IMG/VR virus record: IMGVR_UViG_3300045988_083604
Span: 1-64,000 of that record
DNA: 64,000 bases
From: a virus
Reading direction: 5' to 3' (one strand)
The translations under genes and the position numbers were made by a program. Positions 7,922 to 59,281 of the stretch are shown here, in pieces (position 1 is the first letter of the stretch; each line of letters starts with the position of its first letter). The notes under the pieces were generated by a model, which was not told the DNA's origin, searched no databases, and was given only the letters and a program-made list of their open reading frames with translations.

Positions 7922-7992
7922 TGGACTATGGTGTAATGGGAACACAACAGTTTTTGGCGCTGTTGTTCCAGGTTCGAATCCTGGTAGTCCAA
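7922..7992 (+). tRNA. tRNA-Gln(UUG)
   Basis: Hand-folded cloverleaf: acceptor tggacta/tagtcca (U1-A72), D arm gtgt-aatggga-acac, anticodon arm acagt-ttTTGgc-gctgt, T arm ccagg-ttcgaat-cctgg; no encoded CCA. Confidence 0.85.
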
Positions 7993-8062
7993 CTAATAAC
8001 GATATAGGCAGAGTCAGCAATGCTATGCAATTTGTTTTTAATTGTTTATATTTATTAATTTT

Positions 8063-14664: not shown

Positions 14665-14693
14665 GGACGAGGGTTCGAATCCCTCCACGTCCA
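14665..14693 (+). ncRNA. acceptor/T-arm minihelix (tRNA top-half mimic)
   Basis: ggacg-aggg-ttcgaat-ccct-cca-cgtcc-a; no matching distal 5' acceptor strand found upstream. Confidence 0.35.
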
Positions 14694-14857
14694 CTCTTGT
14701 TTATATATAAGGGCGTGACCGGTTTTGACTGCATAAGGAAGTAAATACGAGATTTCAGAAATCGATAAATCAGAACAATAACATTGTTGACTATACTCAC
14801 GTAGCGTGAGTATGAGTCCTGACAATTCCTTGAGTCAGTTGGAAAAATAGGATGGTT

Positions 14858-16153: not shown

Positions 16154-16159
16154 ATTTGT

Positions 16160-35421: not shown

Positions 35422-38400
35422 TTATTCTTTTTGTTTATACATTTGATTTTGTACATATTTACGTTTAGCATATGAATTATCCCATTGTTCTTTAAGGTTT
35501 TTAAAAGGTGTTAATTTCATTAACGCTCTTTCTTTTTTAGTCCAACCTTCGTATACACCAGTTTGTACAATTTCGTTATTTTCTTCACTATCACTAAAAG
35601 CACTCTTGACGTTTGAGAACATGTTCCATAGAGAATTTTCAGGAGTTTTATAACTGTTAAAACTGTCTGCGAAAACATTTAAACCATCCCAAACAGAAGT
35701 CATAGCTGTTGGTGATTTCATAGTATTAAGCATATCTGCAAATCGATATTGGTTAAACGACTCCCATCTAAATGAGATAGCTATATATGCTATAAGCTAT
35801 AGTAATTTATTATCCTTATCGTCGTCAGCTTTATGTAATAATAACGAAACTAATGGAGATATTAATAGATTATAAATCATAACTTCCGCAAAAACACGTT
35901 TAACAGCCTATCTGTTGATAGGATCTGCAAATGTTTCAGCGATTTGTGCTTTCAATCCGTGTTTTATACCACCGAAGAAAGCTTTTATTTTCTAAGACAA
36001 AGAAATATCTGAAATATTTATCGCTTCTTTATTTAAAAGTCTTATTGCTTGAATACCGTCTTTATATGGATTAATCAATAAATCAGCGACCGCTCTTATA
36101 CCACCATAAGTGTATTGCTACATTTCTAAGTTATATTGTTTTGCACCAAAATACTACTGTATAAGTGGCTGCAAATACTGTTTATGCATCATTATCGCCT
36201 ATCCAGCCATACCTGTCATAAAAGCGGCTTTTTGTGTAGGATTCATAACACCATCTGCACGAGCAGCATAATTCTATGCACGTTTCTGTATATAGAAAAA
36301 TGATTTATCAACTGCGTTTTTATATTCAGACGGTATATTGAACATATTTAACCTATTACCTGTTCTGTGCGCTTCTTTTAATACTTGTAAAAATGTTTTT
36401 CCATCTTTCCATTTTTTGAGAGCTTCTTGATATTCATCTCCGCCATCTATAGAGTTTTTATCGGCATATAATCTACGTAAATCATCTTTTGATATAAATT
36501 TACCGTCAAAAAATCTATGGGCTGCTAGAGTAGCATCTAATATAGTACCTTTTGATAAATAATCAGCTGTTGTTAGTCCGCCAAATGCCCAGTTTTCCAT
36601 AATTTGATTTACAAGAATATTTCTATCTGTATGTTTGTATTTTTTTTCAGATTGATCTGCGAGATTGAAAAGTTCCATTAGATTTTGTTGAAAAAGTCTT
36701 GAATTTTGACTAATTATTCTAGCACCAAATCTGGAATTTATTAAAGATCCCAACATTTCAGCATTAGCTACGCCCCATTCTTTTAATCCATATTCTTTCC
36801 CAGTGACTGCATTCATTATCCCAGAATAATATGCTGTAGCAAAACCAACAGTTGCAACCTTAATACTACAACCTAAGTTTATCAATGTAGTCCATGCTTT
36901 TGCATATTTAAATGGTTTATTTATATTAAAACTTCCAATTTCAGATTTGTCTTCACGTTGATCATAAAGGTTCATATTTAAAAACTTACGTGCCATCTAA
37001 TAAGTATTTGTTTCAAGTCCACTTTTTACAAATCTTGTACCTATAAATTTACGACGTGATATTAAATCTAATATCGTTTCACACTGATCTTTTATATTTG
37101 TTTTTTCTTTATACTGTTGACCTTTTGCGTAATACTGTGATATTATGCCAACTAGATCTGTACTTATCTAAGTAGGATTTTTTAATGCGGCAGTGTACGG
37201 TTGTGGAATAAAACTCAATTGATGTCCATCCGGTCTAGTTGCAGCCTATCTGTTCATATCAATATCCTTTTCTGTAGTTATAAATAATCGACCAATACGA
37301 TCTTTAAATAAAGATTTCCATTTTCCACCACGAGATCGTTTTATCATATTTTTCCAATCAGTTCCAGTTATTCCAGGAAGCTAATAATCATTTTTAAATG
37401 GTATATTAGAATATATCTCATTTGTTTCATGTATAGTATTTATTACTTCATTATACAAATTTTTTAATGTTTGGCTACTTTGTACACTCTCGTACGCTTT
37501 TGAATTATCGTAAGAGAATTTTACTCCGTTGTATATACCATTTATTTTTGGAATATACGTTTCATTTTCGTCCGGTTTGAATTTTTTATCTAAAAATGAT
37601 GATTCAGGATCTTGTTCTATATAATTATCCCCGGGCGCAACCTCAACATATTTATCATAATCTTTAGGTACTATTTTTGTATAAAACTAATAAGGTGTAA
37701 ATTTTTCAAGAATTCCACCCATACCATCGTCATACAATTTTAAAAATCCATGAGTAACAAGAAATTTTTTAACGTTTGTATTTTCATCATCTTGTATTGA
37801 TAATATACCATTTTTCGACTGTTCCTACATATCCAAACGCCGTGCTTCAGCTAACATATCCGCGAACTGCTAAGTCCATTTTATATCGTAATATTCTTTG
37901 CCTAGTTCTGATAATTTTTTGCGAATACGTTTTTTTAATGTTGTCTTACTATCTTTTAATATTTTACCATTTTCTTTTTGTAATGCTATAACTTTTTGTT
38001 TTATTAATTCTGGTAAAATATTAGCATCGACATCACCAGTATCTAATCTACGGTATGGTGCAAGCATTTTATTTATACGATCCTTGTTCTTTTTATATGT
38101 ACTGTCTCCATCCAAAAGATCTTCTATCTGTTTATCCGTAAATCCATTTTTCTCTAAAAGTTCTATTTTTGCCTTACGGATATCGTCAAATAATTTTATA
38201 GTACCATCGTCATTTAGTTTAAATTGTGTTTTACTATTACGTTCATCCCACTCGTCTAATTTTTTCCAATCGAAATTAATGTTAGAACGACCTTTTTCCA
38301 TTTCTTCTAATCCGCCACACTCAGCAATTACTTTATTTCTTAATGTTTGCCATTTATTGGTATTTCGCTTTGCTTTATTTCCATCATATAATGACTTATT

Positions 38401-40983
38401 AAGTTCTTGTAATTCTTGAGCTATTGTTAAATCATCACCTTGTTTGAGTTCACCAGTAACATCATATATATTAGCGAGCTGTCTACGCTACATATATAAA
38501 ACCTTTAATTGCTACCAAGAATCCGGATCCAGATCATCATAATTGTAAAATGTACCATCGTCCGATAAAACTTTAGATCGTATTGCGTTTATTGCAATTT
38601 GAATATCATCTCTGCGTTGTTTTGTAATATCTGATAATTGTGCAAATTTATTATAATATTCAGCATTAAATCTTCTATGACAATGTGCGCCGAGCCATTC
38701 ATTTCGTTCCATCTACCATTTAATTCGATTCTCTTTATTAGTCGGAGGAATTCTATTTCCAGGATCTAATGGCTCGTCTTTTGTACTATATTTACTATTA
38801 AGCTATTCCATAAATTTATTATAATCGCGCTTAAATTTTCCATAGTTTAAGTTTCTAACAAGATATCCTGTAGGCAACCCATTTTCATCCAATTCGTATA
38901 ACTGTTTTACACTTTCTCCAAATTTTAATGAATGCTACAACATTTGTAATTTTGCAACGCGATTATTTGTAGACATTTCTGCTGAACTTATTGCTTTGCT
39001 AACAATATATGAAAGCGCTCGTACAGCATGATCTGAACTTGCATCAGCACTTCCAAAAACTCTACCAAGCTTTGAAATATCATGTGTAGTAGATGATCCT
39101 AATTCAGAAGAAATATAATCTTCCATATCTGTTATATTTCCAGTTTCATACCCTATGTTTTCTAATCTAGCAATAACGTTTGCAGAACATATATTCTTTA
39201 ATATATTTATAGAAGTATCACATAACGATTTACATGTTTCTGTTTTTTCAATAAAATCGTTTAAAGAGGACATTAATGAAAGATTATCTGATTCATAATC
39301 TTTCATAGCTTCGTTTATACCAGGATGTGCAAAAACTCCAAGGAGTTCATCCAAAATACTTTGATACACACCAAAATAATCATGTATTTCATACATATAT
39401 TCGGCATCTGATAAAACATAAACACCATCTTTATATAATTTTTGTGCAGCATTATGAATTTTTTGTGATTCGTCAATAATATCAGGTAATACAGCATTTA
39501 ACACATAAGCTATGGAGTTTAAACTACTCATTGTATTAGACTTCAAAGAAGATATTTGAGATTCTAATCCGAGTAATATTTTATGTTTCTAATCTTCTGG
39601 CATTTTAACAACTTTTACAGCTTTTAATCTGGTTTCTAGCATTTGTATTATTTGTGGAATAATTGTATCGAAAGATTCCTATACGTCTTTTTTTAATAGC
39701 GCCTGACGTTGTTCTTTTTTCTATTTACTCTACGCCAATTTTTGCTAGTATTCTGAGTTGTTTTGTATAAATCTATTTATAACACTTGCACCTAGTGTGA
39801 AATTATATCTTTTAACAACAGGGTGTAATTTTTGTAATAATTCGTCACCTTCTAATACATTTTCAGCTATAAATTTATAAGTATCTACACTTTTTATTAA
39901 ATCTTTTAATTGTTGTTCTGATTTTATATTACCATTCACAATGGCATTTTTATTATTTATATAATTAAAAAGCTAAAGTTGGTATTTTTCAAGATTTTCC
40001 GTGTTAGACTTTTTATTGACAAGAAAATTTATAACATTTTGTACAAACGATTTTAAAGATTTTAACACAGGCTATTTATTATTATTTTTATCAAGTTGTT
40101 TTGCTTTATCAAATAATAATTGTCTGAAAGACTGATTTGTTAAAAATTCAGCTACAAATTCATATTTATCCTAAAAACCATTATATCCGTTTGTATAATC
40201 ATTCCTACTAAACCTTTCAGATGGAAATTGTTTACTATAAAGATTAAAAAGTTTTTCTGTAATTCTGTTCAGTTTTCTATCGAATATAGGAGAATCTTCA
40301 CGCAAACCTTCTGTTGTAAGAGCATGTACAACCTCATGCATTAATTTTTCAGCAGCGAATCCTGTACTTACACGTTTTAAAACTTTCGGATTTATTGATA
40401 TAATCACTCCGCCCTCATTGTCAACAAAAGTAGACATAAGGTTGTTTGAATTTTCTTCCGACATAACAATTGGAATATTATGTCTTGCTAATATTTCTGC
40501 AAACGGTTTAAATGGAGCAGCTATATACGAATCGTTAATCAGCTACTATAATAACTGTTGAGTATTGTTATTTTCCTTCAAAAAAAGATCGTTATTATCA
40601 TTTGAAAACAAATTAACCAGTGTGTCTTTAGATTCAAACGCGTCATTTTTAGGCTTATTCTATTCTGTAAAATTTACGTGCGGCTCCCCGTTCTCATCAA
40701 GTGGAATCTTAGATTTTCCTTCATACCATTTTCCGTTCCGATCGGTATACTTACTAAGATACATCGCGGCTTTTTTCTACATCGCGAGATTATAATCACC
40801 ATGATATTTTTCTAACAATTTTTGGAATAACAAAGACTCAGCCCCGTTTGGAGCTGAAGTCAATGCATATCCATTATTTCTATGCCAGACAAGATATGCC
40901 TAATCTTCTCCGACAGCTTGCACAAGGTCTTCAAACTCTTGTCTAACTTGTGCATTACTTAAATTTGGACAATATGTATTCAT
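35422..40983 (-). CDS. large virion-associated protein, 1853 codons, with N-terminal zincin HExxH motif; about 32 in-frame TAG
   Basis: Seven ORF-track fragments share one frame. I read every intervening codon and found only TAG. ATG 40983 overlaps the TGA of the upstream gene (ATGA); the stop is TAA at 35422. HEVVH lies at 40324-40338. Confidence 0.7.
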
Positions 40984-43900
40984 TTTTTACAATCATTTTT
41001 GCGCTATTCGGCCTCATCTTTATCCTACTCACTCATTTCACTTTGTTCTATCTGTGGCATACCACTTAAATCAATCCCAGTAGACTACAATAAACTAGAC
41101 AAGTCTAATTCACCACCAATTTCCGAAAGACTGGGATCATTCTTTTTCAAACCATCTTCAACTTGTAATTCTTGTGTTTCATCAGACATCTATTGTTCAT
41201 CAACAGATAATTCAGAAGGGACTTGCTTTTGCTTATCAGTTTCTTCATCTTGTTTCTATGGTTGTTCTTTACTTAAATTATTATTTGAATCCTATAGAAC
41301 CGAAGATTCAATATTATCTTTCTATAATTCTTGTTCGGATGTTACAACCTATGTTTCATCCAAAACGACAGGTCTATATGGTTCATATTCCAACCTAATA
41401 GTTTTTTTACCGAGTCGCTTGAAAAACATTTCATTTTGTTTAGATCGTTCTATATTTAACTCCTATTTAATTTCATCCTCAGTCAACGATATCTTAGTTC
41501 CCGGTCTTTGTTGTTCACCAGTTCCAACAAATGTTTCCAAATTGTTTTCTGCGAAAATCGAAACATTATCATCAGAAAAGAATTCATATTGTTTATTTTT
41601 ACCATCCTACAAACTAAGTTTATTTGTAATCATGTATACATTTTTGAACGGATATCGTGTTTCTTTTCCAGTTTCCTTATCGTAATTTACTTTATATTGT
41701 GTTCCTACTTTTTTAAACAAGAATATTTTTTTATTATTTTTACCATATTCTATTTTTATATATGGTGTATTTGCACCGCGAAAATCACTTTCTGAAGCAA
41801 TCGGAAGAGCTAAAGCTATTGGGATATTTCTAAGATTATCTAATGTATTACCACGATCAATCATTTTCACAATAAATTCACCAACTGGAGAGTATACAGA
41901 CGAACTTTTTTGTCTCCTTGTGTATGTCGGAACAATATTTTCATCTTTCCAAAAATTCTTACATAAAGTATCTAGAATATTTAAAACATTCAAAGCACCA
42001 AATTGATCAGATTCTATATCGGTACCGAGAACACTTTGTGCCATTACTTCATCAGAATTACTACCATTACGTAATGCAACTTTCATGGCATTGTCGTATA
42101 AAATTCTATATGTTGGCGGAACTAATTCAAAAAATTGATTTACACCACCGTTATTATAAGTAGTATAATAAGCATATGTTATTAAATCTCTAGCTATATT
42201 TTGTATAGCTTTCACATATGTTATATCTTGACTTAAAGTTGAACTTGTTTGCAAGCTTAACAACTCTTCAAAAGCAGACTGTAATTGTGATTTATCCTAC
42301 GAATCAATATCCATAGACGATGATGCAAGTACAATTCTGTCAACATAAGATCCAGTTTTATCTAAAATAGGATTTAAGTAATTTAAAAACTCATTTTTAA
42401 TAACTCCGTTATCATCACATAATTGCTACAACCAATCTGGTAACTGTTCGTTATTTTGTAATTTATCAAATACCAATTGTTTTAACGTCGCTTTCATTAT
42501 TGATAATCTTCTTGCTAACGATGGAGTCTTATCATTCCCGTATAACAAATCGATTACTTTTTGCCTGGTCGTGACTTCGTTACCACCAAACGTCAAATCT
42601 GGAAATTCCTAAAATCCGTCTTGGATTTGATTATAAGCAAGAAACGCACGATGCCTGAATATTGATTCCAAAGCTTTTCCAATAGCCTGAACCTAATCAT
42701 CGCTCATTACTTTTTGATAACCGAATTTAAAATCATAAATCGGTTTACCTTTTTCATCAAAACCCTTTGGAACTCTATATACAATATCTCCAAATATCGC
42801 AGCCATTGTACTATTAAATACTTTTCCAAATAATGGTGTAGCTGAAAATGATTGATTTCGTAACAATGATTTTGTCAGCTATGTTGCATTACGTAATTTT
42901 TTATCTAAAAACGTATGTTCAAAATAAGTATACATTGGAAGTTCTTTATGTTCTCTACCGTCATCAATGTAAAAATATTTATTTGCATCGTCATCGTTTT
43001 TAAAGTTGTTATAACTATTTAGGAAATTCATTTGGGATATTATATTATTTCCAAATTTTTTAGTGTCTATTCTCGAATTACTAACAAGATCTGATAATAA
43101 ATTAGCCGCTTCTGATATATCTCCAATAAACTAAAGAGATAATGCTTGGAACATACACCATCTTGCGTATTCGTATGAATTATAATTTTGTGGAGTTTTT
43201 AAATATGATTTCGCAGTTTCAAAATCAAGCAATTTCAATTCTTCGTCAGAATATAATATTTCTTTTGTTTTTGCTTCATCTTTAATTATAAATTCAGCTA
43301 CTCTGTTCGGATCGAATGTAGATTTGTCTTGTTCTATACAAGCTTTCCATTTTGTCAGTTTTTGTTTTTGTTCTTCCGAAATGTTTTCAGAACTCAACAA
43401 ATTTGAAGAAATTGTCAAAAAACTTTTTATGTATTTACGCATCAAATCTCCACGAATTTCGTTTTGCCATCTTAAAGACTTCCTTTCACGTATTTCTCTA
43501 GCATCAAAACCAAGTTTCTGTCCATACATTCCTTTACTATTAATAACCATGTTAGCCATTCTTTTCAACGCAGGTTGCGCTAAAAGTGTAAATGTAGCCA
43601 TTCCTTGCCCAGTTCTTAATAAAAAGTTAGTATATTTATAAGTAGCACTATTTACATTTAAATTTAATATATAAGGATCTTTCGCAACATCCACATGTGC
43701 GTTTACCATTGCAGAAAGCCATGCAGAAATCATATAACCGTCTTTTCCAACAACATCGTTGATATTTCCAAAATCGAAACACTTGTTTAACAATTTGTCA
43801 TTTTTACCAAACTTCATTTTTAAACCTACCGCCTGAGTCATGGCTAGATTAGTAACATTTAGTGCAAAAGGACCGATTCCGGATTTACCAGTACTATATT

Positions 43901-46900
43901 CCATTTTTCTACGAGCTTGAAAAGATGGAAGTAGTTCATACATTGATTCTGCGTATTTTGTTGTTTGATCAGACAAATAAGGTATAATTTCATCTTTTAA
44001 CTTCGATGTTAACACATCAATGGATGCACGAGCATCTGCTGTATTTTTATAATCTGAAATTATATCAATATAATCATCGAGAAGTTTATTACGCAATGCT
44101 CCAATGTCTTCTTTCAAATAGTCAACATATTTCATATCAGATTTAGATGATGTTTTATAGCGTGTACTTGTATTACCGTTTCTTTCATATGAATATGTGG
44201 CCATATACAACTTATCGACGTCAAAGTCAGAACCTGTCTAGGCAGTAAATTCAGTAGGTACAATGATTAAATCTCCAGATGTTTCTGGAAGAACATCTGC
44301 TACAATAAAACCAAATGTTGAAGACATACCCTGTGTAGGAATACGGTAGCCTACACCGTATGGTTTCGGATCACTCTACGTATCATCAGATTTTGTACCG
44401 TTTATAATATCATTGTCTACAAGCCATTGACGAGCTGTTGTATAATCAGTGTTGTATTTTTCAGGAATAACGTCTCTAAAGAAGTTCAGAGACAACATAA
44501 CTTCCATTGTACCTTTACCGTTGTACCAACGTAATGACTTTCCATCATTTAAAACATGTCGATTTGACACATTAGTATTTTTTAATTGCTCTTCTGAAAC
44601 AACATTATTTTTACCATAACCAACAAATCCAAAACAAGACTACTGTACCGCAGCACCACCATTTGTATTGATATCTACAACCTCTTTGTTGACCATTGAA
44701 CTTATAGACTATTCGAATATTTGTCTTGCTGTAAGAGACGCAACCTTTCCGCCAGATCTAATTATTTCTTCAGACGATAATCCAAGATCATTATTCTCAC
44801 AAATAGATAATATATAATTTTGTATACGCTGCTAATTTGGTATTACATATCTACCTTCTTTATTCTTTTTAAAGAAACGCTTTTTGATGTTGTCTGTACC
44901 AATCTATGTCATAGCATTTACAAGATTCATTATATCGTTCCTGATAGCACTGCCTAAACGTCCCTCTCCTTTCTATCCATCTTTTCCATACCTCATGTGT
45001 GGATCAACATTGGAAAAACATATCTTCATCATCTATGTACCTATTCCGCGTTCCGTACTTTCATGTGCATCTGTATTCAACTACAAGTGAAGATTATTCA
45101 TATCTTGAATTTGTACAGCAAGACATTCTTTTTGTGGTAATGCTTGATATATCTCTCCTGTTTGATAATTAATAGAGTTATTTGACGGAAGACTTAATGA
45201 TTCAGTATCCATTAATGAAAGGTCCGAAACTCCTTTTTTATATGGTGTATACATTTCCTGGTTACATCCAACTTTTACAGCTGATTCAAATCCTAGCATG
45301 TCTATTTCATTACCAGGCATATTCATACGATTATACAACGCTTTACCTGTTTCACTTTGACAAACATATTTGAACATAGGGAACATTGCCATCTTATTAT
45401 ATACTGGTAGTGACACGTTATGTGCACCAATTTTTGCAGTTGTTGAATTTGAAAAATAACTCATCTTTAACGGTTTCAACATCAATCTTCTACCAATACT
45501 ATATTTTTCAGGATCACTCATCCAATCATCTTCATTTTCAATGATGTTGTACGCTTTCTCGTCACTATATCCAGTTTCATCTTCTGCAAATGACCATTCA
45601 CCAGTTGCAATTCTTAGTTTTCTATACATCGATGGTCTAAGACAAACTTCAGCATCTGCTACAGTTATTCCCTCATAAGGATTTATTGAATTTTTCACTC
45701 TATTCTAAATATCTTCAACCAAAACTTCGCTTTTTGCTGAATTTTTAAGTGCTGTTAATACCTTATCTATATATTCAGGATGACTATATATTGTATAGTA
45801 TACTTTTTCTACTCTAGTTATATTTTTTGGATCCAATCCTACAACTTTAGCAAAATGGTCTATGATATATTTATCATCAAAAGATCTCTTTAACACAGAT
45901 ACAATTTCATTCTATGTGAATATATCACGCATGTTATCCAAATATATAGATTTTGCCTTTATGTCTGAAGTATTCATGAAAGTATACTTACCGGTTCCAA
46001 AATCCTTCAATACGGCTTTTTCTTTATCAGTCCATTGTGTTTTTAAGTTAGTACCTGGAGACAATACAGCACCAAGACGTTTAATTTTGTCGACATCTTT
46101 TGACTACAACATACTCACAGAAACTTTTTCTTTCGAACCATCTTCTAAAGTAACCTCTCTAGTCAAGTGATTTTTTGTAGTTTCAGACAATTGTTTGTCT
46201 TTATACGAAATCCATTTATACATTGCAGGATCACCGGTAAAAATCTTTTCTACTTCGATTATCGACATTATTGTACGCAATGTATGATTAGCAACAGCCG
46301 AATATATAGCACTGTCTCTCAATGTAGATTCGTCTATTTCACCATATTGTGACTTTATTTGATTCTAGTAGTGTTTTAAGATATCATTTGGGAGACCATT
46401 ATTTATATAATGATCATCAACATGTGAAATTAAATGTATATTTTCATCAGTAGAAAGTGCATCAAGTTCGCTACGTACTTTTTCTAACAACATTGCATTT
46501 ATCGAATTACGTAACTATTCTACAGAATTTTTATATGTTTCAGATTCAACATTATCTTCGAGTATGCCAGTTAGAAATTTCCTTATTCTTTCGAATCCGT
46601 CTGTAATATGATCAACATCTCCAATACTTGCACGCTTTGCATTTTCTAACTACTCTGTTTTATACTCTAATTCTAACTATTGATTTAAATTTAAACCGTG
46701 ATTTTTAGATATATCATAGAAGTATCTAAACTTACCACCATTACCGTCAAAATTCAAATGTTTATATTTGTATTTTTTACCATTTGGTAATGTGTATTCA
46801 TCAGTTACTATTTTACCATGAAAATTAACTAACAATTCATTTGGATTCTTTAAAAGTGCTTTTATATTTTCTTTAGAATAATATTCTTTTAATGAATTTA

Positions 46901-49900
46901 ATTCATCTACAAAATATGATGAAAATATATCAATCGTTTCTGGCGATAATTTTGGATCTTCACTATTTGTGATTATTATGTCAGTATTTAGATTATCAGT
47001 AAGCCATTGTGATGTTATACTATACCATGTTTTTTTATCCGCCATTGTTGGGAAAATCAAATGCTTATTATAAGTCATTATGAATTTAGCCATATAATCC
47101 TCTAACGGAGTTATTCCGAAATAATCTGCACTTTTTCCACTTTCCGCATCTTTAACACATACGAATGTATTCAAATGGAGTTTTTCTTCTTCAGGAGTAG
47201 AATAGACTCTATCGTTTTCAGCGTTTTGTACAATTAAAGATCCTTGTGTATACGAAGTAGCTTTTTTATTTTCTAACTCACCATCGGTATTACACTGTAA
47301 ACGATGTAAGAAATCGGATACAGCATTATTTTGATTTATCGGATATATTTGAGCGCCGTTTGCACCGGTGACTGACATTTCCGCAGAAGATGGGTATGTT
47401 TTAGCATATGCCACTGTAAGTTTACCTACCCAGGGAAGACCCTTAGTAGTTTTTTTACCATTTACACGAGACATAGATGTACTGTATCCTTTATAAAATC
47501 CACTTAAGTCTTTTTTACCATCTTTTCCAATAGTTATAGTTTTTCCACGATTTGCAGTAGCTAATTGTCCATATAACTTCTGTATTGTTGCAGTACCAGA
47601 TCCGTTTAACATAGCTCTTAGAACATGTCTCTCTTTTTCTTCAAATACTGTTTCTGGATAAGCTTTCGGGTTTAAAGATAATTCGGTGTTTATAAGTTGC
47701 TATAAAACTTGACCATCTGCAGGTATTGCCATATAATTTAAGACGTTACATACTGCTATTTTTGCACTTTCAACCGACTTGTACTTATTAGATTTAGCAA
47801 AATTCTAAGTTTGAGTACCTTGTTTTTTAGTTGCCGATACTGCTTCATTTATTAAAGATTTTAATTTTTGCATGTATGAGCTACTTATAAACATATCTCC
47901 AGTTTTAGGATCTGTTTCTACAATACCACTACCAGACAATAAATTTTCAGACCATGTTCTCGCTAATATATATTTAGATTGTAAATGTTCACTATCTTGA
48001 ATAGTCCATTGTTTCTAAACATCTATCAGAATATCTGGACTAGATTTCCTCTGTTCTACTTCTTCTCCAAGTGGTTCATTTGAAATCATATCCATCTAAG
48101 TGTCTTGTTTTTTATTGGTTTTTATCGGCGTATCAATAGACAACACGGTGATTCTATTTTTAGAACTCTGAATTGTATTTAATATCTGTGTTTTTATTTC
48201 AAGTTTCTCTTCCAGAGACATTGATTCATCTTCTTCATCTATTAATGGTTCTATTTTCTCTTCTAAAGCATGGAAAAATTTATCACCGCTTCTAGACAAT
48301 CGTTGAACCATTCTAACCAATGAAGTAGATGTATATTGTCCAGTTTCACTATCGATAGCATCGAAGTTATCACAATTCCATAATTCGGACATTATTTTAT
48401 TCCAACCTTTTGAAAAACTCCAATAATTTTGTGATCCGAATAATGCGTCAACATTTGGAACATACTATAAATTACCATTCTTATCTGTTTTTACATCATA
48501 CATTGGAATTGTGCTGAAAAACAATTTCGCTTTAAATCCTACATTTATTTTTTTACTAACTTCCATATGATCAATATCATAAATATTGTCTGCAACATCT
48601 CCGTTATCTTTACCTGTAGAAATATCAGCGTCTAATTTTAACTTTTTATGTTTTACATCTATCGAAAACGTTTTCAACATTGTAGAAATTGTCTTATAAA
48701 AAGCATCTTTATTATTTACAACATCTTGTAATAATTTTGAATTTTCAGATTCTGGATCGCTTTCAATCTACTACTGAATTCCGTCAAAAATAGCGTCAAA
48801 ATCTTCTTTAGAATAATTCTTAAGTTTTGATACTGATGACAAATCAAGACCTTCCATCACTTTATTGCACAACAATTTAGCACATTGATAATATTGATGA
48901 TAGTTCTATATATTTGTAAATTTGGTAACTTGATCATCTGTTAATCCTGGGATTTCGAAATACACGCCATCTGGATAATTTCTTTTAAATTCGTTTATAG
49001 ATTCTTGGTCTAATTTTGCACCGACATATTTTCTATTTTTTATATTTTTATATGCCTAATATACAATATCGGGTTTTCCAAAGAATGTCTTTACAATCTG
49101 TTTTATATTTTTGAAAAATCTCTTTATTCTAGCACTCCAAGATTTATCCTCAAACCCAAACATATACGATCGAAAATCTTCAGCTAACGATTCCTCGATA
49201 TCCTACAATTTTGCATCTTTCAACTCTTTGTGTTTAGATCTATAATCTTCATATATTTTCATTCGCATTGTTCTGTTATGTAACAATAAGTTTACATAAT
49301 GCCACGCTTCATGATATTCGAGACCTTTTCCACTTTTTTTCGATAATGTGATAAAACCATAAACAGAATCTACAATTGAAGAACATGCGAGATTTGTAAC
49401 ACCATAAACTGTTTCATTATGAAGACCTTTCATTATACCGTTAGTCACCAATACCTAATCATCGGATAATCCCAATGTGGTTTGCAACCATGTTTTCGCA
49501 GATTTAGTATCTATAGAACCTTTCCCACGTTTTTGTGAGTATACACCACTTACAGTTGTTGGTTTTGTTTGAAAATCTATAGTTAAAAATGCAGTACCGT
49601 CATCTTTAACGTGTAAGAATACATTAAAACCTTTAAACTTTTTATAAGTGTTGAATACTTTTATAGATTTTTCGTCTATTTTAATACCATGTTTTTCAAG
49701 TTCTGCAAATTTTTCAAGCATTACTTGTTTTAACTTATCTGCATTTGACTTATTCCATCCAAGTTGTTTCCCAGTTTTTCCAATTGTTGTAGCCGTCACT
49801 AAATATGTAGTAGTTGGATTTTTTTCATCTACTTTTACACTCTTATACGCATCATCTTCCGGTATTGTAAAAGTTACATTCGGAATATCTTTCTTTTTAG

Positions 49901-52900
49901 ATTCTTTTTTATTAGAATCTTCTATCACCTTTTCAATTTTTGTTTTTTGTTTTTTAGGCTGAGTAGTTTTCTTAGGTTTAGAAGGTTGTTTTGGAAGTGC
50001 TGACGTTTTTACTCCGTTAGCAAAAACATATGGTGCTTTAAACATATCATCACCGTGAGTTCCGACATCTGTAGTAAGTTTGTAATTTTTTATCATCCAA
50101 GCTAACACCAATGGGTTTTTTCTACTTCCGTCTTGATTATAAAAATCATCATATGAGAATGTAAAGTTTACATTTCCGAATGGGTTAAATACAGATATTG
50201 GTTTACCATTAGATTTTTTTCGTTGTTTTTTATCATCGAAAAAATATTGATCTAATACACTATACAACGACTGATCATCTAATGTTGACATTAAACGTTC
50301 TATATTTGTATTCCAATGCATATTTTTCTCAATCAATGCTATAACATGTCTTCTGTTTTTTGCACATTGTTCTTTCAATTCTTCACTTGCATTATCACTT
50401 GGAAATAATTCCTACATTTTATATTCATGCAAAAATGCCTTATCTTCGTCGTCACGATCACCTATATAGAAAGAAATGGTACCATCAGCATGTTCAATAT
50501 ACGCAAGCTGTTTGTCAGAATAAAACCCTAATCGTTGTGACAGATATGCATTTTTCTATGATGGTTTTATGTTTCCAAACATGTCCGGTTTAACAATACC
50601 GATAAGTGTTTGTTTACCATGATTTATTAATAAATCTGATAATGCCTCTATTGTTTCATCACTAAGACCTATTGTGTTCAAACCTCGTCTACCTAAAACA
50701 ATACTTTGTTTATTTATACGTTTTGTAATAAGTCTAAAAGCAATTTCTGCTAAAGATGGTGGATTGTTCAAATCTGCAACCCCATCTAATGTGAATGATT
50801 CTGTTACAGTATCATCGGAAGGATCTAATTCCGTACTTAATTTTTGTTCTGTAAGTTGTACGTATACTTGTTTTTTAGCTGTTCCCGGCTAACTTTCATC
50901 CGGTACTTTTATATATAGTTTACCAGCTTTTCCAGTACCGGGTATTTCTTCAGAAGTTCCGTTTATTGGTCTAATCCTATTAGGTCCTGGATTTTCGCCA
51001 AAAGGACCTGTACCAACACCAAATTGAATTTGACCACTTTCAATCTCGTCAGATATATCAGAAATAGTGGTACCAAGATGAAAACCACCTAATTCGCCAA
51101 ATATAGGTCTCTATATAGATGTTCCAAAATCATCTCTTTGATTGTTTAAATTACCATTTGTCAATTGTACAGATTGTGGTTGTACATCTTCGCGAACTTG
51201 ATCTGGAATATTATATGTACCATCTTCATTTCTAGTACAATATGCTTCAATTATCTACTTTCTCTATTCACGCAAACGCTGCAAATACTCTTCTATTTCG
51301 TTATTTGTGAAAACTCTTAGATTTTTAGATATTGCAGATTGTAATCTACAACGTTCTTGTAATTCTTCATATTGTGATATAAACTTTTCAGCCCACTAAC
51401 GTTCGGTTAACGATGTTTTATATTTGAGATTATATGCTGTAGTTATTGATTGTAAAGCGTTATTTAATAAAGCATGATATAATTCTGTATTTACATTTAA
51501 GAATTTAAGTCTATTTATAATATGCAACAACCTTGATTCTTCTCCTTTTATAAAATGTCTAGCGGAAGGTTCACGCATTGCAACATTATATATTATGTTT
51601 GGATTATCAGGGTCTTCCATAATCATAACAACAGTTAAATCATCAGCTTCTGATTTGTCATAACCACTAACAATATAATATTTTTTTGTAATTCTACTAA
51701 ACCATCCAGGTATTGATAACATTTTATTCAATTCTGCACCAGTTGCCATCTGTTTGTCGGTAAATATTGGTTTACCATTGTGTTCATATGGTATTCTAAC
51801 ATCAGAATCCGGTCTATAATTAAATGGGTTTCCTATTTCAGACGTTACAACAGATCTTTCAGCTTCGACTTTACCTTCATCAACCTATTCGTCATACATA
51901 TCATCTAACCCAGAGAAAGATAATAATTCGTCATCTATAAGTTTGCCTGCTATAGTTATCGAACCATCGTCTTTAACGTCCAAATCATTTAAACTGTTAT
52001 CTTCATCGGATTGTGGAACGTGAATTAATTGATCTTTATTAGGAATGGGATATTTATCATAAAATTGTTGAAGTACATAATCTATGTCTGGAGCTATTCT
52101 ATCAATTTCTTTTATACAATCTTCATAAGAAAGTCCACGGACCCATCTTTCTAGAAACTATTTGGCGATACGTGAAGCTGTTTCTTTATTAACAAATACA
52201 GCATTCATTATATCATCAGTGAGCTAAGAGATTGCAGAAATATGTTTTGACTCATCGTGTAATTCATCTTGTTTTTCATCTTTTTCCTGCTATCCCTCAT
52301 CACCAGATTCATCTACTGCAGGTTCATCTATTATCGATTTCTATTTTTGTTCACCTGTGTTTGTATTAGTATCGTTGTTTTCTGGTGCTTGCGGATCTTG
52401 ATTTTGAGTTGGTGGAATTATTGTAACAGATCCATCTTTTCCGATTTCAATGTCTGCTTCACCTCCAATCTACTCCTCATCATTTTGTATATCTATAATC
52501 TGTCCTTCGGCATCTTCTACAACAGGTTGTATATCTTCATTATTATCTTCTACCTAAGGTTGTGTAAGATGATTATCGTCTGAAAGTTGTACGTCCGGAT
52601 TGGAATCATTATTATCATGTAACGATTTTATAATTTTATCTAAATAATCCTTTATATGACGTTGTGCATTTTTACCATTTTGTACACCTATATCCGTTTT
52701 ACCAAACAATAAATTATTTAAAGATTCAGAATCTAATTGTTGACTATTTGGATTTTCGCTGAAAATCAAATGACCATTTTGTCTAAACCACATCACACTT
52801 TGTTCATATGCAAAGTTTTCATTTAGTATTTTTTGAATTTTAGAAATTTGATCGATACCATAACCAACTTCCATTTCTTTAATTCCATCTTTTATAAGCC

Positions 52901-55900
52901 AATTTCCTTTCTCGCCATGTACAGAATCACCGATTCCAAAAAATGGATACCATTGATTTTTGTGTTTACCGTCTGTACCACTTGATGATTTATAAAATGG
53001 AAGTAAAACACCATTTATATTTGCAACAACAAATTCTCTACCATTTACAATACCCCATTGTCCTGTAAGTGTTCCGTTTTTTACGAGTGTATTATAAATA
53101 TCTCGAATTTTATCTAATCCTGATAACTATTCTTCCGACTCTTTGTTTTCCTTTTTACGAATTGCTTCATAAGCTTTTACAAATTCATCAGCCCATTCTT
53201 CTGAAATGTTTAGTTTTTGTTGTAAATATATTGATGGGTCTGTTGTATCATTTGTAGGTTTCTTTTTTAACAAGTCTATTGCCTTAATTAAAGCTTCACG
53301 TTTATGTTCAGCTTCGTCTTGCATCTGATCTTGTTTTTCTGCTTCTTCTATAGTAGTATTTTCACCAACATAACCTTCTACAGAAGTATTCATACTTGCA
53401 GAACCTCCTTCTACATTTTCTTCAATTAATTGATCTATTGCATCGCTGGTAATAGTTGCTTTTTCAGCTTTTCTTTTTGCCTTTTCTGTAAGTTCATCTG
53501 ATTTTTCACCATATACCTTACGTCTAGCTTCGTCTATTTGTTTTTGATGCGCATCTATGTCCTATTCAGTAACCTACTGTTTTGCAGTTTCTGTTGCCTT
53601 CTTTTGGTCTTCGTCTTGTTGAGACTGAGCCTCATTTATTATCTTTTTTTGAGCTTTTTCATCTCCATTATTAGCATTATCTAAATCCTAAATAGTTAAA
53701 GGTTCTTCCTGTTCTTTTTCTAAACGAACCATTTGTCTTCTCTAAAATCTGTCTGACATATCCTATTCTATTATAAGATGTGCAGCAGATTTTTCAAGAT
53801 TTTCAATTTGTTCTTGTTCATCAATAGGTGTGAGTGCTTTATCTGTACCTCTATTTTTATCAATATCCTCTCGCTTTTTTTTCAATTTAGAGGCTTGTAG
53901 ATTTAACAATCTATTTCGATTAATCCATTCTTTTTTGAAATCTAAACTACTCACATCTTCACCTTTAGCCTATTTTTCACGAACAAGATTGTTCTAAAAA
54001 TTAGTACGTTGTTCATCTGTAAGATTTTCCCATTTTACACGAGGTATATTAAATCTGACGTTTTTAGGATCTACAGAATTAAATGCATACGCTTGGTATT
54101 TCACAGACAATGCATGTAATATCGCATTATTTAGTGAGTTTACTGTTATTTTTTCGTTTAAATCTTCACTATTAACAATATCTTCGTATTTCTGTAATAA
54201 TTTTTTATTATTTCCTTCGTTTACAATCAATGAATATTTCTTTTCTATAGCATTAATTTGATCTTTTATGGAGTTTTTCATACCATAAAGACTTTCTATA
54301 TTTATTTTATATCCGAAAGCTTTTTTTATCGAAGAAAGTTTGTCGGATTGAGAATTTAATTTACTATATAAACCCTTTAAAATACGAAGTTTCTTTAGAT
54401 TATATAAAGTAGTAATGATCCTGTCTGCATAATCTTCCTCAGATAAATTCAAATCATTCTCAATTTTTTCTTTTTCGGTTTGTAACGGTTTTACTTTATC
54501 TTGGTATTCTTTTTCTCTAGCTTCATCTTCAGCTCGTTGTTTTTCTATTTCAGACTGTTCAGTTAATACAGGAGATGCACTTGGTTTATGATATTTAGCA
54601 TATAAATCATCGATCTACTTATTTATTTCAGAAATTCTATCATTTTTTTCAATCTTATCAGAAACATATGTTTTTTTAATTAATTCTTTAAATGATTTTA
54701 TAAGAGGTTCGTTTTCAATATTCTACGATTCACCTTCTTTATATTGTCTTACATTTCTAATTATATCATTTAAACGAGAAGTCACATCATGGTCGCTGAT
54801 ATTAGCAAGTTCTGCAACATTTTTAAAATCCAAAATCACACGAGACGCCTATTTTACATACTCTTTATGGTCTTCAGATCCTCTAGTTATGTGTAAATCA
54901 TCTAATATTTTATTTTTCTTTTTGTTAGTCTCTGTGTATACATTATAAGCAGTCCTGGCTAAAGTAATATCATCTTGTAAATCTTGATCACTTACCACTT
55001 CGTCATTTTTCAAATATTTAAAAGCTTCATACGATTTTGCAATTTTGTCCGCATTTCCACCATTTTTAAAACTATCAAAAAACATACCAAGATGAATATC
55101 ATCCTATTGTGCTTTATAATTATTAGCAACATATCGCATCAAATTCTTATCGAATTTGTATTGATTTATATATGCTCGTAACGATTCTGGGTTATTTGTA
55201 ACTGATGCTAAACCTTGATGAAGTAAACCAAACCAAAATGATGTTAAAGAACCAATTTCCATCTGTTGTCGTAAAGAATCGCTACCATTTAATGGGTCGC
55301 CAAAATCCAATCCAAAATATGCTAATACAGATTCTGTAGCAAGTTTTCCGTTGTCTACAAGTGATCTTAAATCGACACCTCTACCATAATCATAATCCGG
55401 AGAACTTTCGTCATAAACCCCTCTCCCATATCTATCTTGTAGAAATGCCTGTTGTCCTTCTTCAATACCTTCGCTAGCTGCAACAAATGCTGCTTTTTTA
55501 CCAAGACTTAATCCGGAATTTATTAAATTGCGTCTTGCAATTTGTTTTTCTATAGAACCTCCATATTTTTTAAGAACGTTGTCAATTTTTCTACTTATAA
55601 AACCTTGTGCTAATCTACGCTTTGTTTCAGATGATATACTATTTTCTGCAAATTTTGAAACAGCATCAAACATATCTTCAGATGTATATCTAAGATTTTT
55701 TTTGTATACCATATTTCTCGCAACTTTGTCAGCATAGTCTTTAATAATAGAACCTCCAGATCCGGCAAATGGTAATGCTTCTATATAGTCCATATACCCT
55801 AAAGCGTTATTTTGTGCTTTAAGTTTGTTTATACCTAACCTCGCATCTCGTTTGATTTTTTCAAAATTTGAATCACCTGTCTGGATATTATAAGAAAGTG

Positions 55901-57362
55901 CTAATTGTAACAAGTCTTGTTCATTAAGACCTTCTGTTTCAATACCATTTGATTTACAAAATTGTTTTGTAATATTCAATATCCTGCCGAGATTTATATT
56001 GTTCTTAATAGATTCATCCTGTACACGTTGTAAATAAGCGTCTGTAGCTTCTGAATTTGTTTCATCTTGACGCATTGAATAAGCTGTAGCAACAGATCCG
56101 AGTTGTGTAAGAAGTTGCACAGATAATCCGGCAACTGGATTTTTAGCAGCTAATGATTTAGATATCGCACCACCTATCCACTATAAACCTAATTGAGCCA
56201 TAAACGCTTTTGCAGAAGAAAAAGAAGATCCTATTTCAGGTAAAGAATATAATAGTGCATTTATTCCCTTTTCATTCAAATCTCGAAACGGGGAATTGGT
56301 AGAGCTTTCTTGTTCAAAATTTTTATCGATATTTTTAGGATTATAAAACCACGAACCTTTTCTATATAAATCAAGTGTACTTTTTACATTGATAGATTGT
56401 TCGTCAATATCTGGTTGCAGATCTTTTATACGTTTATCTATATCTTTTTGAAATAATTGTAATGATGCTCCGTTTAAATGTTCTAAATCATATCTTTGTA
56501 ATTTTTGTAAATCAAATTCGTTTAAAGATCCTCTGGCAATAGCGGCTCTTGTGTGTTTTTCTGAAGACGGGTTTGAAATAAAATCAAGAAAATTAGATGC
56601 TCCTTGAACTGCTTTATTGAAAAATCTTAAAATTGAATTATCTGGTTGATCTTTAGAAACATGATCTAGAGCATCGAATGCAACTTTTGCTCCTATTTCA
56701 CCAGCGTCTTTAAGGTTATCTGGAGCACTGTTATACATTAAACGTTGTAATGTTGGATTTGTTTTTATAGCTTGTTTATAATAATCAATTTGTGTCTAAA
56801 AATCACCATATTTATTTTCAATATCCCTTTGCAATAATTGTGCATTATACATATCACCATTTAATCTATACACATTTAATTTTTGCAAATCATTTTTATA
56901 TTGATCATATTTATCTATAAAGTCTCTAAATCCTTCTAGATCCGATTGTTCCTATTTTAGATTTTGTAATTCTTCTTCTTCACTACCAAGATGAGATTGT
57001 AATTGTCTCTTAACAGTTTGATTCCATGCAGACGTCCAATCAAAATTATACAAATCTGATGGTATACTTGCTACGTTTTTAACACCTTTCCATATACCAT
57101 CAGCAAGATTACCAAAAAAACTACTGTCAGAATCATTTTCAACAGTTGTATCCGAAGGTGTTATTGGCTAATAATAATCCGGACCACCTGTTTGAGAGTA
57201 TTCACTTGTAAATTCAGGATTGAAATATACACCAGAGTTTACATTCGATTTTTCCTAAACTCGCAATTCTTCTGAGGAACCTTGCCTCATACTTTGACCA
57301 ATGTTGCCATATAATGTAGCATACCTAGGATTGTATATCTATTTGTTTTTCTTTTTAGCCAT
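40980..57362 (-). CDS. giant ORF, 5460 codons, including a crAss-type virion RNA polymerase-like region (GSDFDVDKL); about 75 in-frame TAG
   Basis: 24 ORF-track fragments from 41607 to 56738 share one frame. All gaps were read codon by codon and contain only TAG. ATG 57362 is preceded by an in-frame TAATAA; the stop is TGA at 40980. DFDVD lies at 44214-44228. Confidence 0.6.
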
Positions 57363-57371
57363 AATTATTTA

Positions 57372-59276: not shown

Positions 59277-59281
59277 AATAA

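What the first reader, a model, noticed from the sequence alone, without database searches (positions are those of the whole stretch)
40980..57362. Single 5460-codon ORF that includes the virion RNA polymerase-like region
With TAG read through there is no TAA or TGA in this frame for 16,383 nt.

The product would be about 5460 aa. It contains YRIPTQGMSS...TGSDFDVDKLY (DFDVD at 44214-44228). This resembles the DxDxD metal-binding motif of the crAss-type, YonO-like single-subunit virion RNA polymerase.

That polymerase is about 2200 aa in the prototype crAssphage. Here it would be fused to several thousand residues of additional sequence, possibly other ejected or cargo proteins. That suggests either a polyprotein or an unusually large multidomain ejection protein.
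Basis: partly seen in the sequence, partly recalled or inferred. Interest (0 to 1): 0.75.

Follow-up and report, generated by a model that had tools for sequence, protein, structure and literature searches.

The report
Giant fused virion RNA polymerase gene
This is a real 5,460-codon gene of a gut crAss-like phage that reads the TAG stop codon as glutamine. It joins a large virion protein to the phage's packaged RNA polymerase, an arrangement already annotated and described for this phage family, so it is a new example and not a new kind of thing.

Summary
It has 5,460 sense codons, 75 in-frame TAG and no other TAA or TGA (chance about 1e-163).

TAG behaves as a glutamine codon. In a 95%-identical relative, every one of our TAGs that changed became CAG or CAA. 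The same genome carries a tRNA(CUA) just outside the window.

The product (622 kDa) has two modules:
- The N-terminal half resembles phi14:2 gp67 and the crAss001-type gp47, and contains a conserved HEAWH motif.
- The C-terminal half is the crAss-type virion RNA polymerase. Its SDFDVDKLY aligns with the catalytic SDFDIDKMY of PDB 6VR4.

All seven Suoliviridae (delta crAss-like) genomes I examined have the same giant gene (4,400-5,794 aa). One of them, cr118_1, uses the standard code and has a 4,946-aa ORF with no stop of any kind. That argues against some TAGs still terminating.

Giant RNA polymerase genes of up to about 6,000 aa, fusion into a "huge polyprotein", and TAG-to-Gln recoding of late genes are all published. 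Whether the product is cleaved remains untested.

Verdict: genuine, well explained, a new member of a known kind, low novelty.

The parts
40980..57362 (-). Giant ORF: ATG 57362 to TGA 40982-40980. 5,460 aa, 622 kDa, pI 5.45, 75 in-frame TAG read as Gln.
   Evidence: The gene call on the same genome in ENA ERZ1690186 NODE_42 is also 5,460 aa.
48858..57362 (-). N-terminal module, aa 1 to about 2835, resembling phi14:2 gp67 and the crAss001-type gp47 (virion cargo protein / 'RNA-polymerase subunit'). Function not assigned.
   Evidence: aa 1436-1562 match phi14:2 gp67 aa 1389-1510. aa 2624-2793 match Kehishuvirus gp47-like aa 2104-2263 of 2311. aa 302-1268 and 1843 onward are collinear with cr7_1 gp32. 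Pfam and PHROGs give no hit on the whole module.
52619..53119 (-). Accessory domain, aa about 1415-1581. Present here and absent as a clean in-frame 501-nt indel in a 95%-identical relative.
   Evidence: The domain is homologous to phi14:2 gp67 and, at 47% identity, to structural proteins of Cellulophaga phages phi17:2 and phi4:1. It matches phrog_32390 at E=3.8e-16.
48963..49514 (-). Conserved zincin-like region, aa 2617-2800. HEAWH lies at aa 2684-2688 (window 49299-49313), followed about 35 aa later by IEESLAEDF.
   Evidence: There is exactly one HE[AG][WF]H in each of 7 Suoliviridae giant ORFs and near the C-terminus of Kehishuvirus gp47-like. YHEAWHYVNLLLH and EExxAExF are conserved in alignments. 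The fold is not confirmed: the AF2 model has pLDDT 47.6 and a PDB profile search found nothing.
41463..48857 (-). Virion RNA polymerase module, aa about 2836-5300.
   Evidence: The N-terminal boundary is estimated three ways, all giving aa about 2830-2840: gp66 offset (3664-833), Kehishuvirus RNAP offset (3893-1061), and the end of Kehishuvirus gp47-like. The module is collinear with cr7_1, cr6_1 and cr118_1 to aa about 5255-5277.
43545..46373 (-). Polymerase core with detectable sequence homology to phi14:2 gp66 (PDB 6VR4), aa 3664-4606.
   Evidence: phmmer against PDB gives E=1.2e-23. Stretches 4324-4393 and 4419-4606 align to gp66 1319-1389 and 1486-1675.
44214..44228 (-). DFDVD catalytic metal-binding motif, aa 4379-4383.
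   Evidence: SDFDVDKLY aligns with SDFDIDKMY of 6VR4. One DFD[VI]D is present in every homologue. 59 TAG codons lie upstream of it in the ORF.
40983..41345 (-). Acidic, hydrophobic-poor C-terminal tail (aa 5340-5460) ending ...RKNDCKK.
   Evidence: composition; a Cys within the last 1-6 residues in 6 of the 7 giant homologues; cr273_1 lacks it.
35422..40983 (-). Downstream gene, 1,853 aa with 32 TAG. Its start overlaps the giant ORF's stop (ATGA). It resembles phi14:2 gp65 and the crAss001-type gp49, with HEVVH at aa 216.
   Evidence: The HExxH is conserved in 5 of 7 orthologues.
57372..63849 (-). Three upstream late genes (634, 717 and 807 aa), each with 10-11 TAG. The first ends 9 nt before the giant ORF's ATG.
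   Evidence: The 807-aa product matches the Kehishuvirus 'stabilization protein'. Gene order is the same as in cr7_1 and the other Suoliviridae.
7922..7993 (+). Phage tRNA-Gln(UUG). It is about 70% identical to the amber-suppressor tRNA(CUA), which lies about 0.55 kb beyond the window's left edge.

Best explanation
The interval is one genuine late gene of a crAss-like phage of the Suoliviridae (delta) type, translated with TAG read as glutamine.

Its 622-kDa product joins two virion proteins end to end. In other Crassvirales these are separate: a gp67/gp47-like protein (aa 1 to about 2835, with a conserved HExxH zincin-like motif about 150 aa before the junction) and the two-barrel single-subunit virion RNA polymerase (aa about 2836-5300, catalytic DFDVD at 4379).

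Inferred from the characterised homologues phi14:2 gp66 and crAss001 gp47/gp49/gp50:
- The protein is made late and packed into the capsid as cargo.
- It is pushed through the tail in a partly unfolded state at infection.
- It transcribes the phage's early, standard-code genes.

Because 59 TAG codons precede the catalytic motif, polymerase can only be made once amber suppression is nearly complete. At 99% read-through per codon, only about half of ribosomes would finish the ORF. The suppressor is a phage tRNA(CUA) related to tRNA-Gln.

Whether the chain is then cut near aa 2835 into two mature proteins is not shown. I lean slightly (about 55:45) towards cleavage.

Shown here: the ORF, the recoding, the homologies, and conservation of the fusion. 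Inferred: packaging, ejection, early transcription and processing.
For: ORF statistics.

TAG reads as Gln:
- Of 70 of our TAGs covered in a 95%-identical relative, 61 stay TAG, 8 are CAG and 1 is CAA, with nothing else. In the reverse direction, the relative's TAG corresponds to our CAG (4), CAA (2) and other codons (3).
- Against cr7_1, 29% of our TAGs align to Gln, versus a 5% background and 22% for our own CAA/CAG codons.
- 52 of the 75 TAGs lie inside conserved aligned blocks.
- The plus-strand early genes are almost free of TAG.

Suppressor:
- An intronless tRNA(CUA) is present in sister strains.
- The same tRNA, split by an intron, is present in this genome.

Polymerase homology and motif alignment.

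Module map.

Conservation of the fusion:
- cr7_1 5,443 aa, cr273_1 5,794, cr118_1 4,946, cr53_1 4,645, cr125_1 4,502, cr6_1 4,400. Each is followed by a 1,561-2,043-aa gene in the five genomes where that gene lay wholly within the fetched stretch.
- cr118_1 has no TAG, TAA or TGA in frame and aligns to our aa 356-833 and 2671-5255.

Independent assembly: a 99.8%-identical contig has the ORF open for at least 4,270 codons.

Literature:
- Fusion into 'a single huge polyprotein, likely cleaved' (10.1101/2020.03.07.982082).
- RNA polymerase genes 'up to ~6000 aa' and TAG-to-Gln confirmed by metaproteomics in a Suoliviridae phage (PMC10136315).
- gp47, gp49 and gp50 found as virion cargo (PMC10172136).
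- Late-gene recoding in the delta group (PMC7886860).
Against: - There is no protein-level evidence for this phage. Packaging, ejection and activity rest on homologues that are 23-35% identical.
- The N-terminal 2,800 aa have no profile or structure match beyond other phage virion proteins.
- Both structure predictions failed.
- One 95%-identical relative has a single in-frame TGA at aa 3642. A split form may therefore be tolerated, or that contig carries a defect.
- The Gln identity of the suppressor is inferred from codon substitutions and about 70% similarity to tRNA-Gln, not from charging data.
Confidence: 0.88

Rival explanations
1. Some of the 75 TAG codons still terminate. The interval would then encode a series of separate proteins, for example a gp47-like protein ending at the tandem TAG-TAG at aa 2864-2865 and a separately initiated polymerase.
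For: A tandem TAG-TAG (triple in the 95% relative) lies about 30 aa after the estimated module junction. The modules are separate genes in Steigviridae. Suppression is never 100% efficient, which is general knowledge.
Against: - The standard-code relative cr118_1 has one uninterrupted 4,946-aa ORF across the same junction.
- The tandem TAG is not conserved: it is K-E-Q in a 58% relative and K-N-N in cr7_1.
- TAGs sit inside conserved blocks and exchange only with CAG/CAA.
- The catalytic core itself would be cut into pieces of at most 368 aa.
- Not one TAA or TGA occurs at any putative boundary in 16.4 kb.
Confidence: 0.05
2. The full-length 622-kDa chain is the mature form. It is packaged and ejected uncut, so that the polymerase stays tethered to the gp47-like module.
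For: - The fusion is conserved in all seven Suoliviridae examined, across five subfamilies.
- Sequence conservation runs straight through the junction with no obvious disordered linker there. The hydrophobic-poor segments are at aa 1637-1709, 2449-2499 and 5340-5404, not at about 2835.
- The HExxH motif also exists in the unfused Kehishuvirus gp47-like protein, so it is not there specifically to process a fusion.
Against: - The modules work as separate proteins in phi14:2 and crAss001.
- The authors of the polymerase structure consider cleavage likely.
- Passage of a 5,460-residue chain through the tail is demanding, although N4 ejects a 3,500-residue polymerase (PMC13434306 abstract).
Confidence: 0.4
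3. The long ORF is an assembly artefact: a chimeric join or collapsed frameshifts.
For: It comes from a metagenome assembly at low coverage. The contig name gives cov 4.6.
Against: - It is collinear over aa 302-5277 with cr7_1.
- The same ORF appears in a 99.8%-identical Logan contig from another sample and, apart from one codon, in a 95%-identical ENA contig.
- The coding signature is uniform.
Confidence: 0.01

Closest known systems
Giant 'transcription block' ORFs of Suoliviridae (delta crAss-like phages), e.g. cr7_1 gp32 (YP_010112776, 5,443 aa), cr273_1 gp35 (5,794 aa), cr118_1 gp14 (4,946 aa, standard code)
   Same: - Same gene order: three ~600-800-aa late genes, the giant ORF, a 1.5-2.0-kaa gene, then divergent replication genes.
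- The same single HE[AG][WF]H lies 1,475-1,876 aa before a single DFD[VI]D.
- Collinear alignment over most of the length.
- Most also use TAG as Gln in late genes.
   Different: - Only 23-37% amino-acid identity to the RefSeq representatives.
- No megablast match to any deposited phage record.
- N-terminal lengths differ.
- This genome carries an accessory 167-aa domain that even a 95% relative lacks.
Cellulophaga phage phi14:2 gp66 virion RNA polymerase (PDB 6VR4) with neighbours gp67 and gp65
   Same: - Homologous polymerase core with the aligned catalytic motif.
- Homologues of gp67 (upstream) and gp65 (downstream) sit in the same order.
- All lie in the late operon.
   Different: - In phi14:2 the three are separate genes (1,797, 2,180 and 1,421 aa) and the code is standard.
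- Here the gp67-like and gp66-like parts are one ORF, with about 1,000 extra residues between the gp67-like domain and the polymerase. That stretch includes the HEAWH region, which phi14:2 gp67 lacks.
crAss001 / Kehishuvirus gp47, gp50 and gp49 (RNA-polymerase-associated cargo proteins)
   Same: - The gp47-like C-terminal HEAFH region matches aa 2624-2793.
- The polymerase matches aa 3893-4604.
- The gp49-like protein matches the downstream 1,853-aa ORF.
- These proteins are detected in virions as cargo.
   Different: In Kehishuvirus the gp47-like gene is on the opposite strand from the polymerase gene, so no fusion is possible.
Coliphage N4 virion RNA polymerase (~3,500 aa)
   Same: It works alike: a giant polymerase packaged in the capsid and ejected to transcribe early genes (literature).
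   Different: It has an unrelated fold (T7-like single-subunit, from established knowledge). It shows no sequence similarity here and has no stop-codon recoding.
Code-15 (TAG to Gln) late-gene recoding in gut phages
   Same: In-frame TAG is confined to the late, structural strand. A phage suppressor tRNA(CUA) is present. TAG exchanges with CAG/CAA between strains.
   Different: In this genome the suppressor tRNA gene is interrupted by a 189-nt group I intron. I did not find that detail in the papers read.

Membership tests
crAss-type virion RNA polymerase (phi14:2 gp66 family) | Significant sequence homology to gp66 / PDB 6VR4 | tested here: met
   phmmer E=1.2e-23, with three significant stretches covering gp66 aa 854-1675. 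blastp and phmmer repeated locally.
crAss-type virion RNA polymerase (phi14:2 gp66 family) | DFDxD catalytic metal-binding motif at the homologous position | tested here: met
   TGSDFDVDKLY aligns with TGSDFDIDKMY of 6VR4. The motif is conserved in all homologues.
crAss-type virion RNA polymerase (phi14:2 gp66 family) | Two double-psi beta-barrel domains in one polypeptide | not testable with these tools
   No usable structure model.
crAss-type virion RNA polymerase (phi14:2 gp66 family) | Packaged in the virion and active in early transcription | not testable with these tools
   Known only for phi14:2 and crAss001.
Suoliviridae giant fused transcription-block ORF | Single ORF carrying both the gp47-type HExxH region and the polymerase DFDxD motif | tested here: met
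   HEAWH at aa 2684 and DFDVD at aa 4379 lie in one frame. The same holds in 7 of 7 Suoliviridae homologues.
Suoliviridae giant fused transcription-block ORF | Synteny: followed by a 1.5-2.0-kaa gp65/gp49-like gene, then divergently transcribed exonuclease, ATPase and primase genes | tested here: met
Suoliviridae (taxon) | Phylogeny of TerL, MCP, portal and primase, and shared gene content | not tested
   TerL, MCP and portal lie outside the window. Placement rests on the best hits of the giant ORF, all of which are Suoliviridae. The neighbouring family Darmviridae is not excluded.
Genetic code 15 (TAG to Gln) phage recoding | In-frame TAG inside conserved genes, at positions aligned to sense codons | tested here: met
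Genetic code 15 (TAG to Gln) phage recoding | TAG interchanges with Gln codons between close relatives | tested here: met
   9 of 9 changes of our TAG are to CAG or CAA. 6 of 9 in the reverse direction are from CAG or CAA.
Genetic code 15 (TAG to Gln) phage recoding | Phage-encoded suppressor tRNA with anticodon CUA | tested here: met
   It is not in the window. It is present in the same genome 0.55 kb to the left, split by an intron (L013 7582-7843), and is intronless in sister strains.
Genetic code 15 (TAG to Gln) phage recoding | Peptides with Gln at TAG positions | not testable with these tools
   Shown for another Suoliviridae phage by metaproteomics (PMC9523058 and PMC10136315).
Proteolytically processed viral polyprotein | An embedded protease domain | tested here: inconclusive
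   There is a conserved HExxH plus a downstream EExxAExF motif. There is no Pfam or PDB match and no confident model.
Proteolytically processed viral polyprotein | Defined cleavage sites and separate mature products | not testable with these tools
   This needs virion proteomics. The literature only calls cleavage 'likely'.

The most novel reading that the evidence does not exclude
The 622-kDa chain is not cleaved. It is packaged and ejected as one molecule. The gp47-like half would then anchor at the envelope or ejection channel while the tethered polymerase half transcribes, and perhaps helps pull in, the entering genome.

Its synthesis would be gated twice: by the need to read 75 TAG codons, and by self-splicing of the group I intron that interrupts the only suppressor tRNA(CUA) found in the parts of this genome I could read.
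Probability: 0.2. Interest if true: 0.55.

Novelty: new member of a known kind. Interest (0 to 1): 0.2.

Why it matters
The finding mainly confirms existing knowledge.

- This genome is divergent. It has at most 37% identity to named Suoliviridae in this gene and no deposited phage record at the nucleotide level, so it extends the family's known range.
- With 59 TAGs before the catalytic site, it is a demanding natural test of how complete amber suppression must be in an infected cell.
- The open biological question is unchanged. Nobody has shown whether these fused proteins are cut. This gene and its standard-code cousin in cr118_1 would be good substrates for that experiment.

Tried and rejected
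- **Plus-strand reading of the given coordinates:** 346 stops.
- **Pfam and PHROGs on the whole protein:** nothing, apart from one marginal PHROG hit of unknown function (E=5.8e-4). On sub-domains, the only hit was phrog_32390 of unknown function.
- **Structure prediction:**
  - A 58%-identical homologue of the HExxH region with a 7-sequence alignment gave pLDDT 47.6.
  - The TAG-free accessory domain as a single sequence gave pLDDT 38.3.
  - I ran no fold search because the models are too poor.
- **Profile of the HExxH region against PDB sequences:** no match even at E=10.
- **Close relatives in public collections:** none in IMG/VR, JGI metagenome contigs or GenBank phages at the nucleotide level. 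They exist only in ENA and Logan assemblies, reached through exact-protein look-ups.
- **Exact look-up of code-15 products:** P0001 is not indexed.
- **Second tRNA-like sequence at 6703-6780 as a possible hidden suppressor:** rejected. It has no CUA and a misshapen anticodon arm.
- **In-frame TGA in relative L012 as evidence for two genes:** rejected. It cuts inside a conserved polymerase block, and the 57 codons between it and the next ATG stay in frame and conserved. It sits in one of 16 short mismatch clusters.
- **L018 as an independent assembly:** rejected. It is 100% identical to the window and comes from the same contig as L013.
Full report
**1. The observation**

The coordinates are right, but the frame is on the minus strand.
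- On the plus strand the interval has 346 stops in frame.
- On the minus strand, counting only TAA and TGA as stops, the longest open frame in the window is 40980..57368. The gene runs from ATG 57362 to TGA 40982-40980, which is 5,460 sense codons.
- It contains 75 TAG codons. The two other frames of the same stretch contain 298 and 621 TAA/TGA.
- From the ORF's own composition, the chance of 5,460 codons without TAA or TGA is about 1e-163. Shuffles of the 28.6-kb block never exceeded 190 codons.
- The codon-position GC pattern is the same in all thirteen 420-codon windows, so there is no hidden spacer.

**2. TAG is a sense codon here, most likely glutamine**

- All five minus-strand late ORFs in the window (35.4-63.8 kb) carry 10-75 in-frame TAGs and end in TAA or TGA. 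On the plus strand, among ORFs of at least 100 aa read with TAG as sense, only seven carry an in-frame TAG; under the standard code, only 3 of 37 ORFs of at least 90 aa end in TAG.
- A contig from another sample is 95% identical in DNA (ENA ERZ13616926, L012). Of 70 of our TAGs covered there, 61 are TAG, 8 are CAG and 1 is CAA, with nothing else. Where that contig has TAG and we do not, we have CAG (4), CAA (2) and other codons (3).
- Against the more distant cr7_1, 29% of our TAGs align with Gln. The background is 5%, and our ordinary Gln codons reach 22%.
- The window itself holds only tRNA-Gln(UUG).
- Four sister contigs carry a 72-nt tRNA with anticodon CUA just left of the window.
- The contig that is 100% identical to the window (ENA ERZ1690186 NODE_42, 99,111 bp) has the same tRNA at L013 7582-7843, interrupted by a 189-nt insertion after anticodon base 35.
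  - ARAGORN in intron mode calls it tRNA(cta) i(36,189), and the spliced form is a clean cloverleaf.
  - Rfam's group I intron model matches at E=1.6e-4.
  - The exon end GGCUCU pairs with GGAGCU in the intron, with a U.G pair at the splice site, and the intron ends in G.
  - The tRNA is about 70% identical to the phage's tRNA-Gln.

**3. What the protein is**

Pfam and PHROGs do not recognise it, apart from one marginal PHROG hit of unknown function at E=5.8e-4. Three other lines of evidence identify it.
- A search of PDB sequences finds one entry, 6VR4, the virion RNA polymerase gp66 of Cellulophaga phage phi14:2 (E=1.2e-23). TGSDFDVDKLY aligns to TGSDFDIDKMY.
- tblastn against deposited phages hits only Crassvirales. 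The best matches are Suoliviridae (cr7_1, 37% identity over 89% of the C-terminal 2,660 aa).
- The N-terminal 2,800 aa match the same ORFs in those phages. They also match the C-terminus of the Kehishuvirus 'RNA-polymerase subunit' (crAss001 gp47 type) at aa 2624-2793, and phi14:2 gp67 at aa 1436-1562.

The downstream 1,853-aa ORF matches phi14:2 gp65 and the Kehishuvirus gp49-like protein. It shares their HExxH at about aa 216-251.

The phi14:2 gene order is gp67, gp66, gp65. The same order is kept here, with the first two joined.

Three independent offsets place the junction at aa about 2830-2840.

**4.

Related genomes do not show TAA/TGA-delimited separate genes at collinear positions.
- RefSeq annotates single CDSs in all seven Suoliviridae I examined, which span five subfamilies.

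| Genome | Giant CDS (aa) |
|---|---|
| cr7_1 | 5,443 |
| cr273_1 | 5,794 |
| cr118_1 | 4,946 |
| cr53_1 | 4,645 |
| cr125_1 | 4,502 |
| cr6_1 | 4,400 |

- In the five genomes where it lay wholly within the fetched stretch, the next gene is 1,561-2,043 aa.
- Six of the seven genomes are TAG-recoded. cr118_1 is not: its 4,946-aa ORF has no TAG, TAA or TGA in frame. It aligns to our aa 356-833 and 2671-5255, straight across the junction.
- Every one of these proteins has exactly one HE[AG][WF]H, lying 1,475-1,876 residues before exactly one DFD[VI]D. In Kehishuvirus the two motifs sit in two genes on opposite strands.
- The single exception is one in-frame TGA in L012 at our aa 3642. It lies inside a conserved polymerase block, in one of 16 short mismatch clusters, and the downstream sequence is conserved in frame. 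I read it as a defect or strain variant, not a gene boundary.
- A 99.8%-identical contig from a further sample has the ORF open to its contig end, at least 4,270 codons.

**5. How it most likely works**

From the homologues, these proteins are made late and packed in the capsid as cargo. They are ejected partly unfolded, and the polymerase transcribes early genes.

Here the early genes are in standard code and the polymerase gene is not. The enzyme used at the start of one infection therefore has to be made at the end of the previous one, after the code switch.

With 59 TAGs before the catalytic motif and 75 in all, read-through must be close to complete. At 99% per codon about 47% of ribosomes would finish the ORF, and at 95% about 2% would.

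Cleavage into a gp47-like protein and a polymerase is plausible. The authors of the polymerase structure favour it, and there is a conserved HExxH...EExxAExF motif about 150 aa upstream of the junction. However, that motif is also present where no fusion exists, no linker is evident at the junction, and nothing here tests cleavage.

**6. Comparison with what is known, and novelty**

The following are all published:
- their occasional fusion into a 'huge polyprotein';
- TAG-to-Gln recoding of late genes in the delta group;
- its proteomic confirmation.

This genome is divergent and has no deposited phage record at the nucleotide level. The feature itself is a new member of a known kind.

**7. 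Side observations**

- A 58%-identical relative has a group I intron with a LAGLIDADG gene inserted exactly inside the catalytic motif (..TGSD | FDVDKLY..).
- A 167-aa domain of the N-terminal module is present or absent between 95%-identical strains.
- Six of the seven giant proteins end in a short tail with a Cys within the last few residues.
- The window also holds a permuted-tmRNA-like RNA and an odd tRNA-like sequence.

Noticed in passing
L013 7582-7843 (minus strand), same genome as the window, about 0.55 kb beyond window position 1: The amber-suppressor tRNA(CUA) gene is split by a 189-nt group I intron between anticodon bases 35 and 36. Sister strains (L014-L017) have the same tRNA without the intron. 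Standard tRNA finders miss the split gene, which may explain some reports of recoded crAss-like phages 'without a suppressor tRNA'.
   Followed up: partly
L020 about 15,730-16,620 (ENA ERZ27279233 k141_435192, 58%-identical relative): The giant ORF there is interrupted exactly inside the catalytic motif (..TGSD | FDVDKLY..) by an insertion of about 0.9 kb. The insertion has group I intron signatures (Rfam E=1.4e-10) and a LAGLIDADG endonuclease ORF. The window's copy has no such insertion.
   Followed up: partly
window 52619-53119 (giant ORF aa about 1415-1581): A clean in-frame 501-nt presence/absence difference with a 95%-identical relative (L012). The segment is a domain shared with phi14:2 gp67 and, at 47% identity, with structural proteins of the unrelated Cellulophaga phages phi17:2 and phi4:1. 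A 12-nt repeat, TTAGATAAAATT, lies near both ends.
   Followed up: partly
L012 9830-9832, corresponding to window 46437-46439: There is a single in-frame TGA (ours is ATA, aa 3642) in the relative's giant ORF. It lies inside an 11-mismatch patch of 45 nt. The ENA gene caller split the gene there into 3,474-aa and 1,762-aa products.
   Followed up: partly
window 14634-14809 (+): Rfam match to permuted tmRNA (RF04321, 63 bits against a gathering score of 47, E about 1e-9) in the early/middle gene region. ARAGORN did not call it.
   Followed up: no
window 6703-6780 (+): A tRNA-like sequence (Rfam tRNA, 39.7 bits) with good acceptor, D and T arms but an oversized, irregular anticodon arm and no CUA. 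ARAGORN did not call it.
   Followed up: partly
window 48768-48773 (giant ORF aa 2864-2865): Tandem TAG-TAG about 30 residues after the estimated junction of the two modules. The 95% relative has three TAGs in a row there. The site is not conserved in more distant relatives.
   Followed up: partly
window 40983-41003 (C-terminus of the giant ORF): Six of the seven Suoliviridae giant proteins, and the Kehishuvirus gp47-like protein, end in a short tail with a Cys within the last 1-6 residues (..NDCKK, ..NKKC, ..KKECK, ..NCKGK, ..KKECE, ..HCKGE, ..RCS). In the giant proteins the tail follows an acidic stretch. cr273_1 lacks the Cys.
   Followed up: no
L013 2821-6426 and L015 3463-6609, compared with L014 4552-6609: A gene left of the window is 1,201 or 1,048 aa with Hint/intein and LAGLIDADG domains in some strains, and 685 aa without them in others. 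This is an intein presence/absence polymorphism.
   Followed up: no
window 1-35400 (+ strand): Early and middle genes avoid TAG both as a sense codon and as a stop. Only 3 of 37 ORFs of at least 90 aa end in TAG. GC skew changes sign at about 36 kb, where the two gene blocks diverge.
   Followed up: partly
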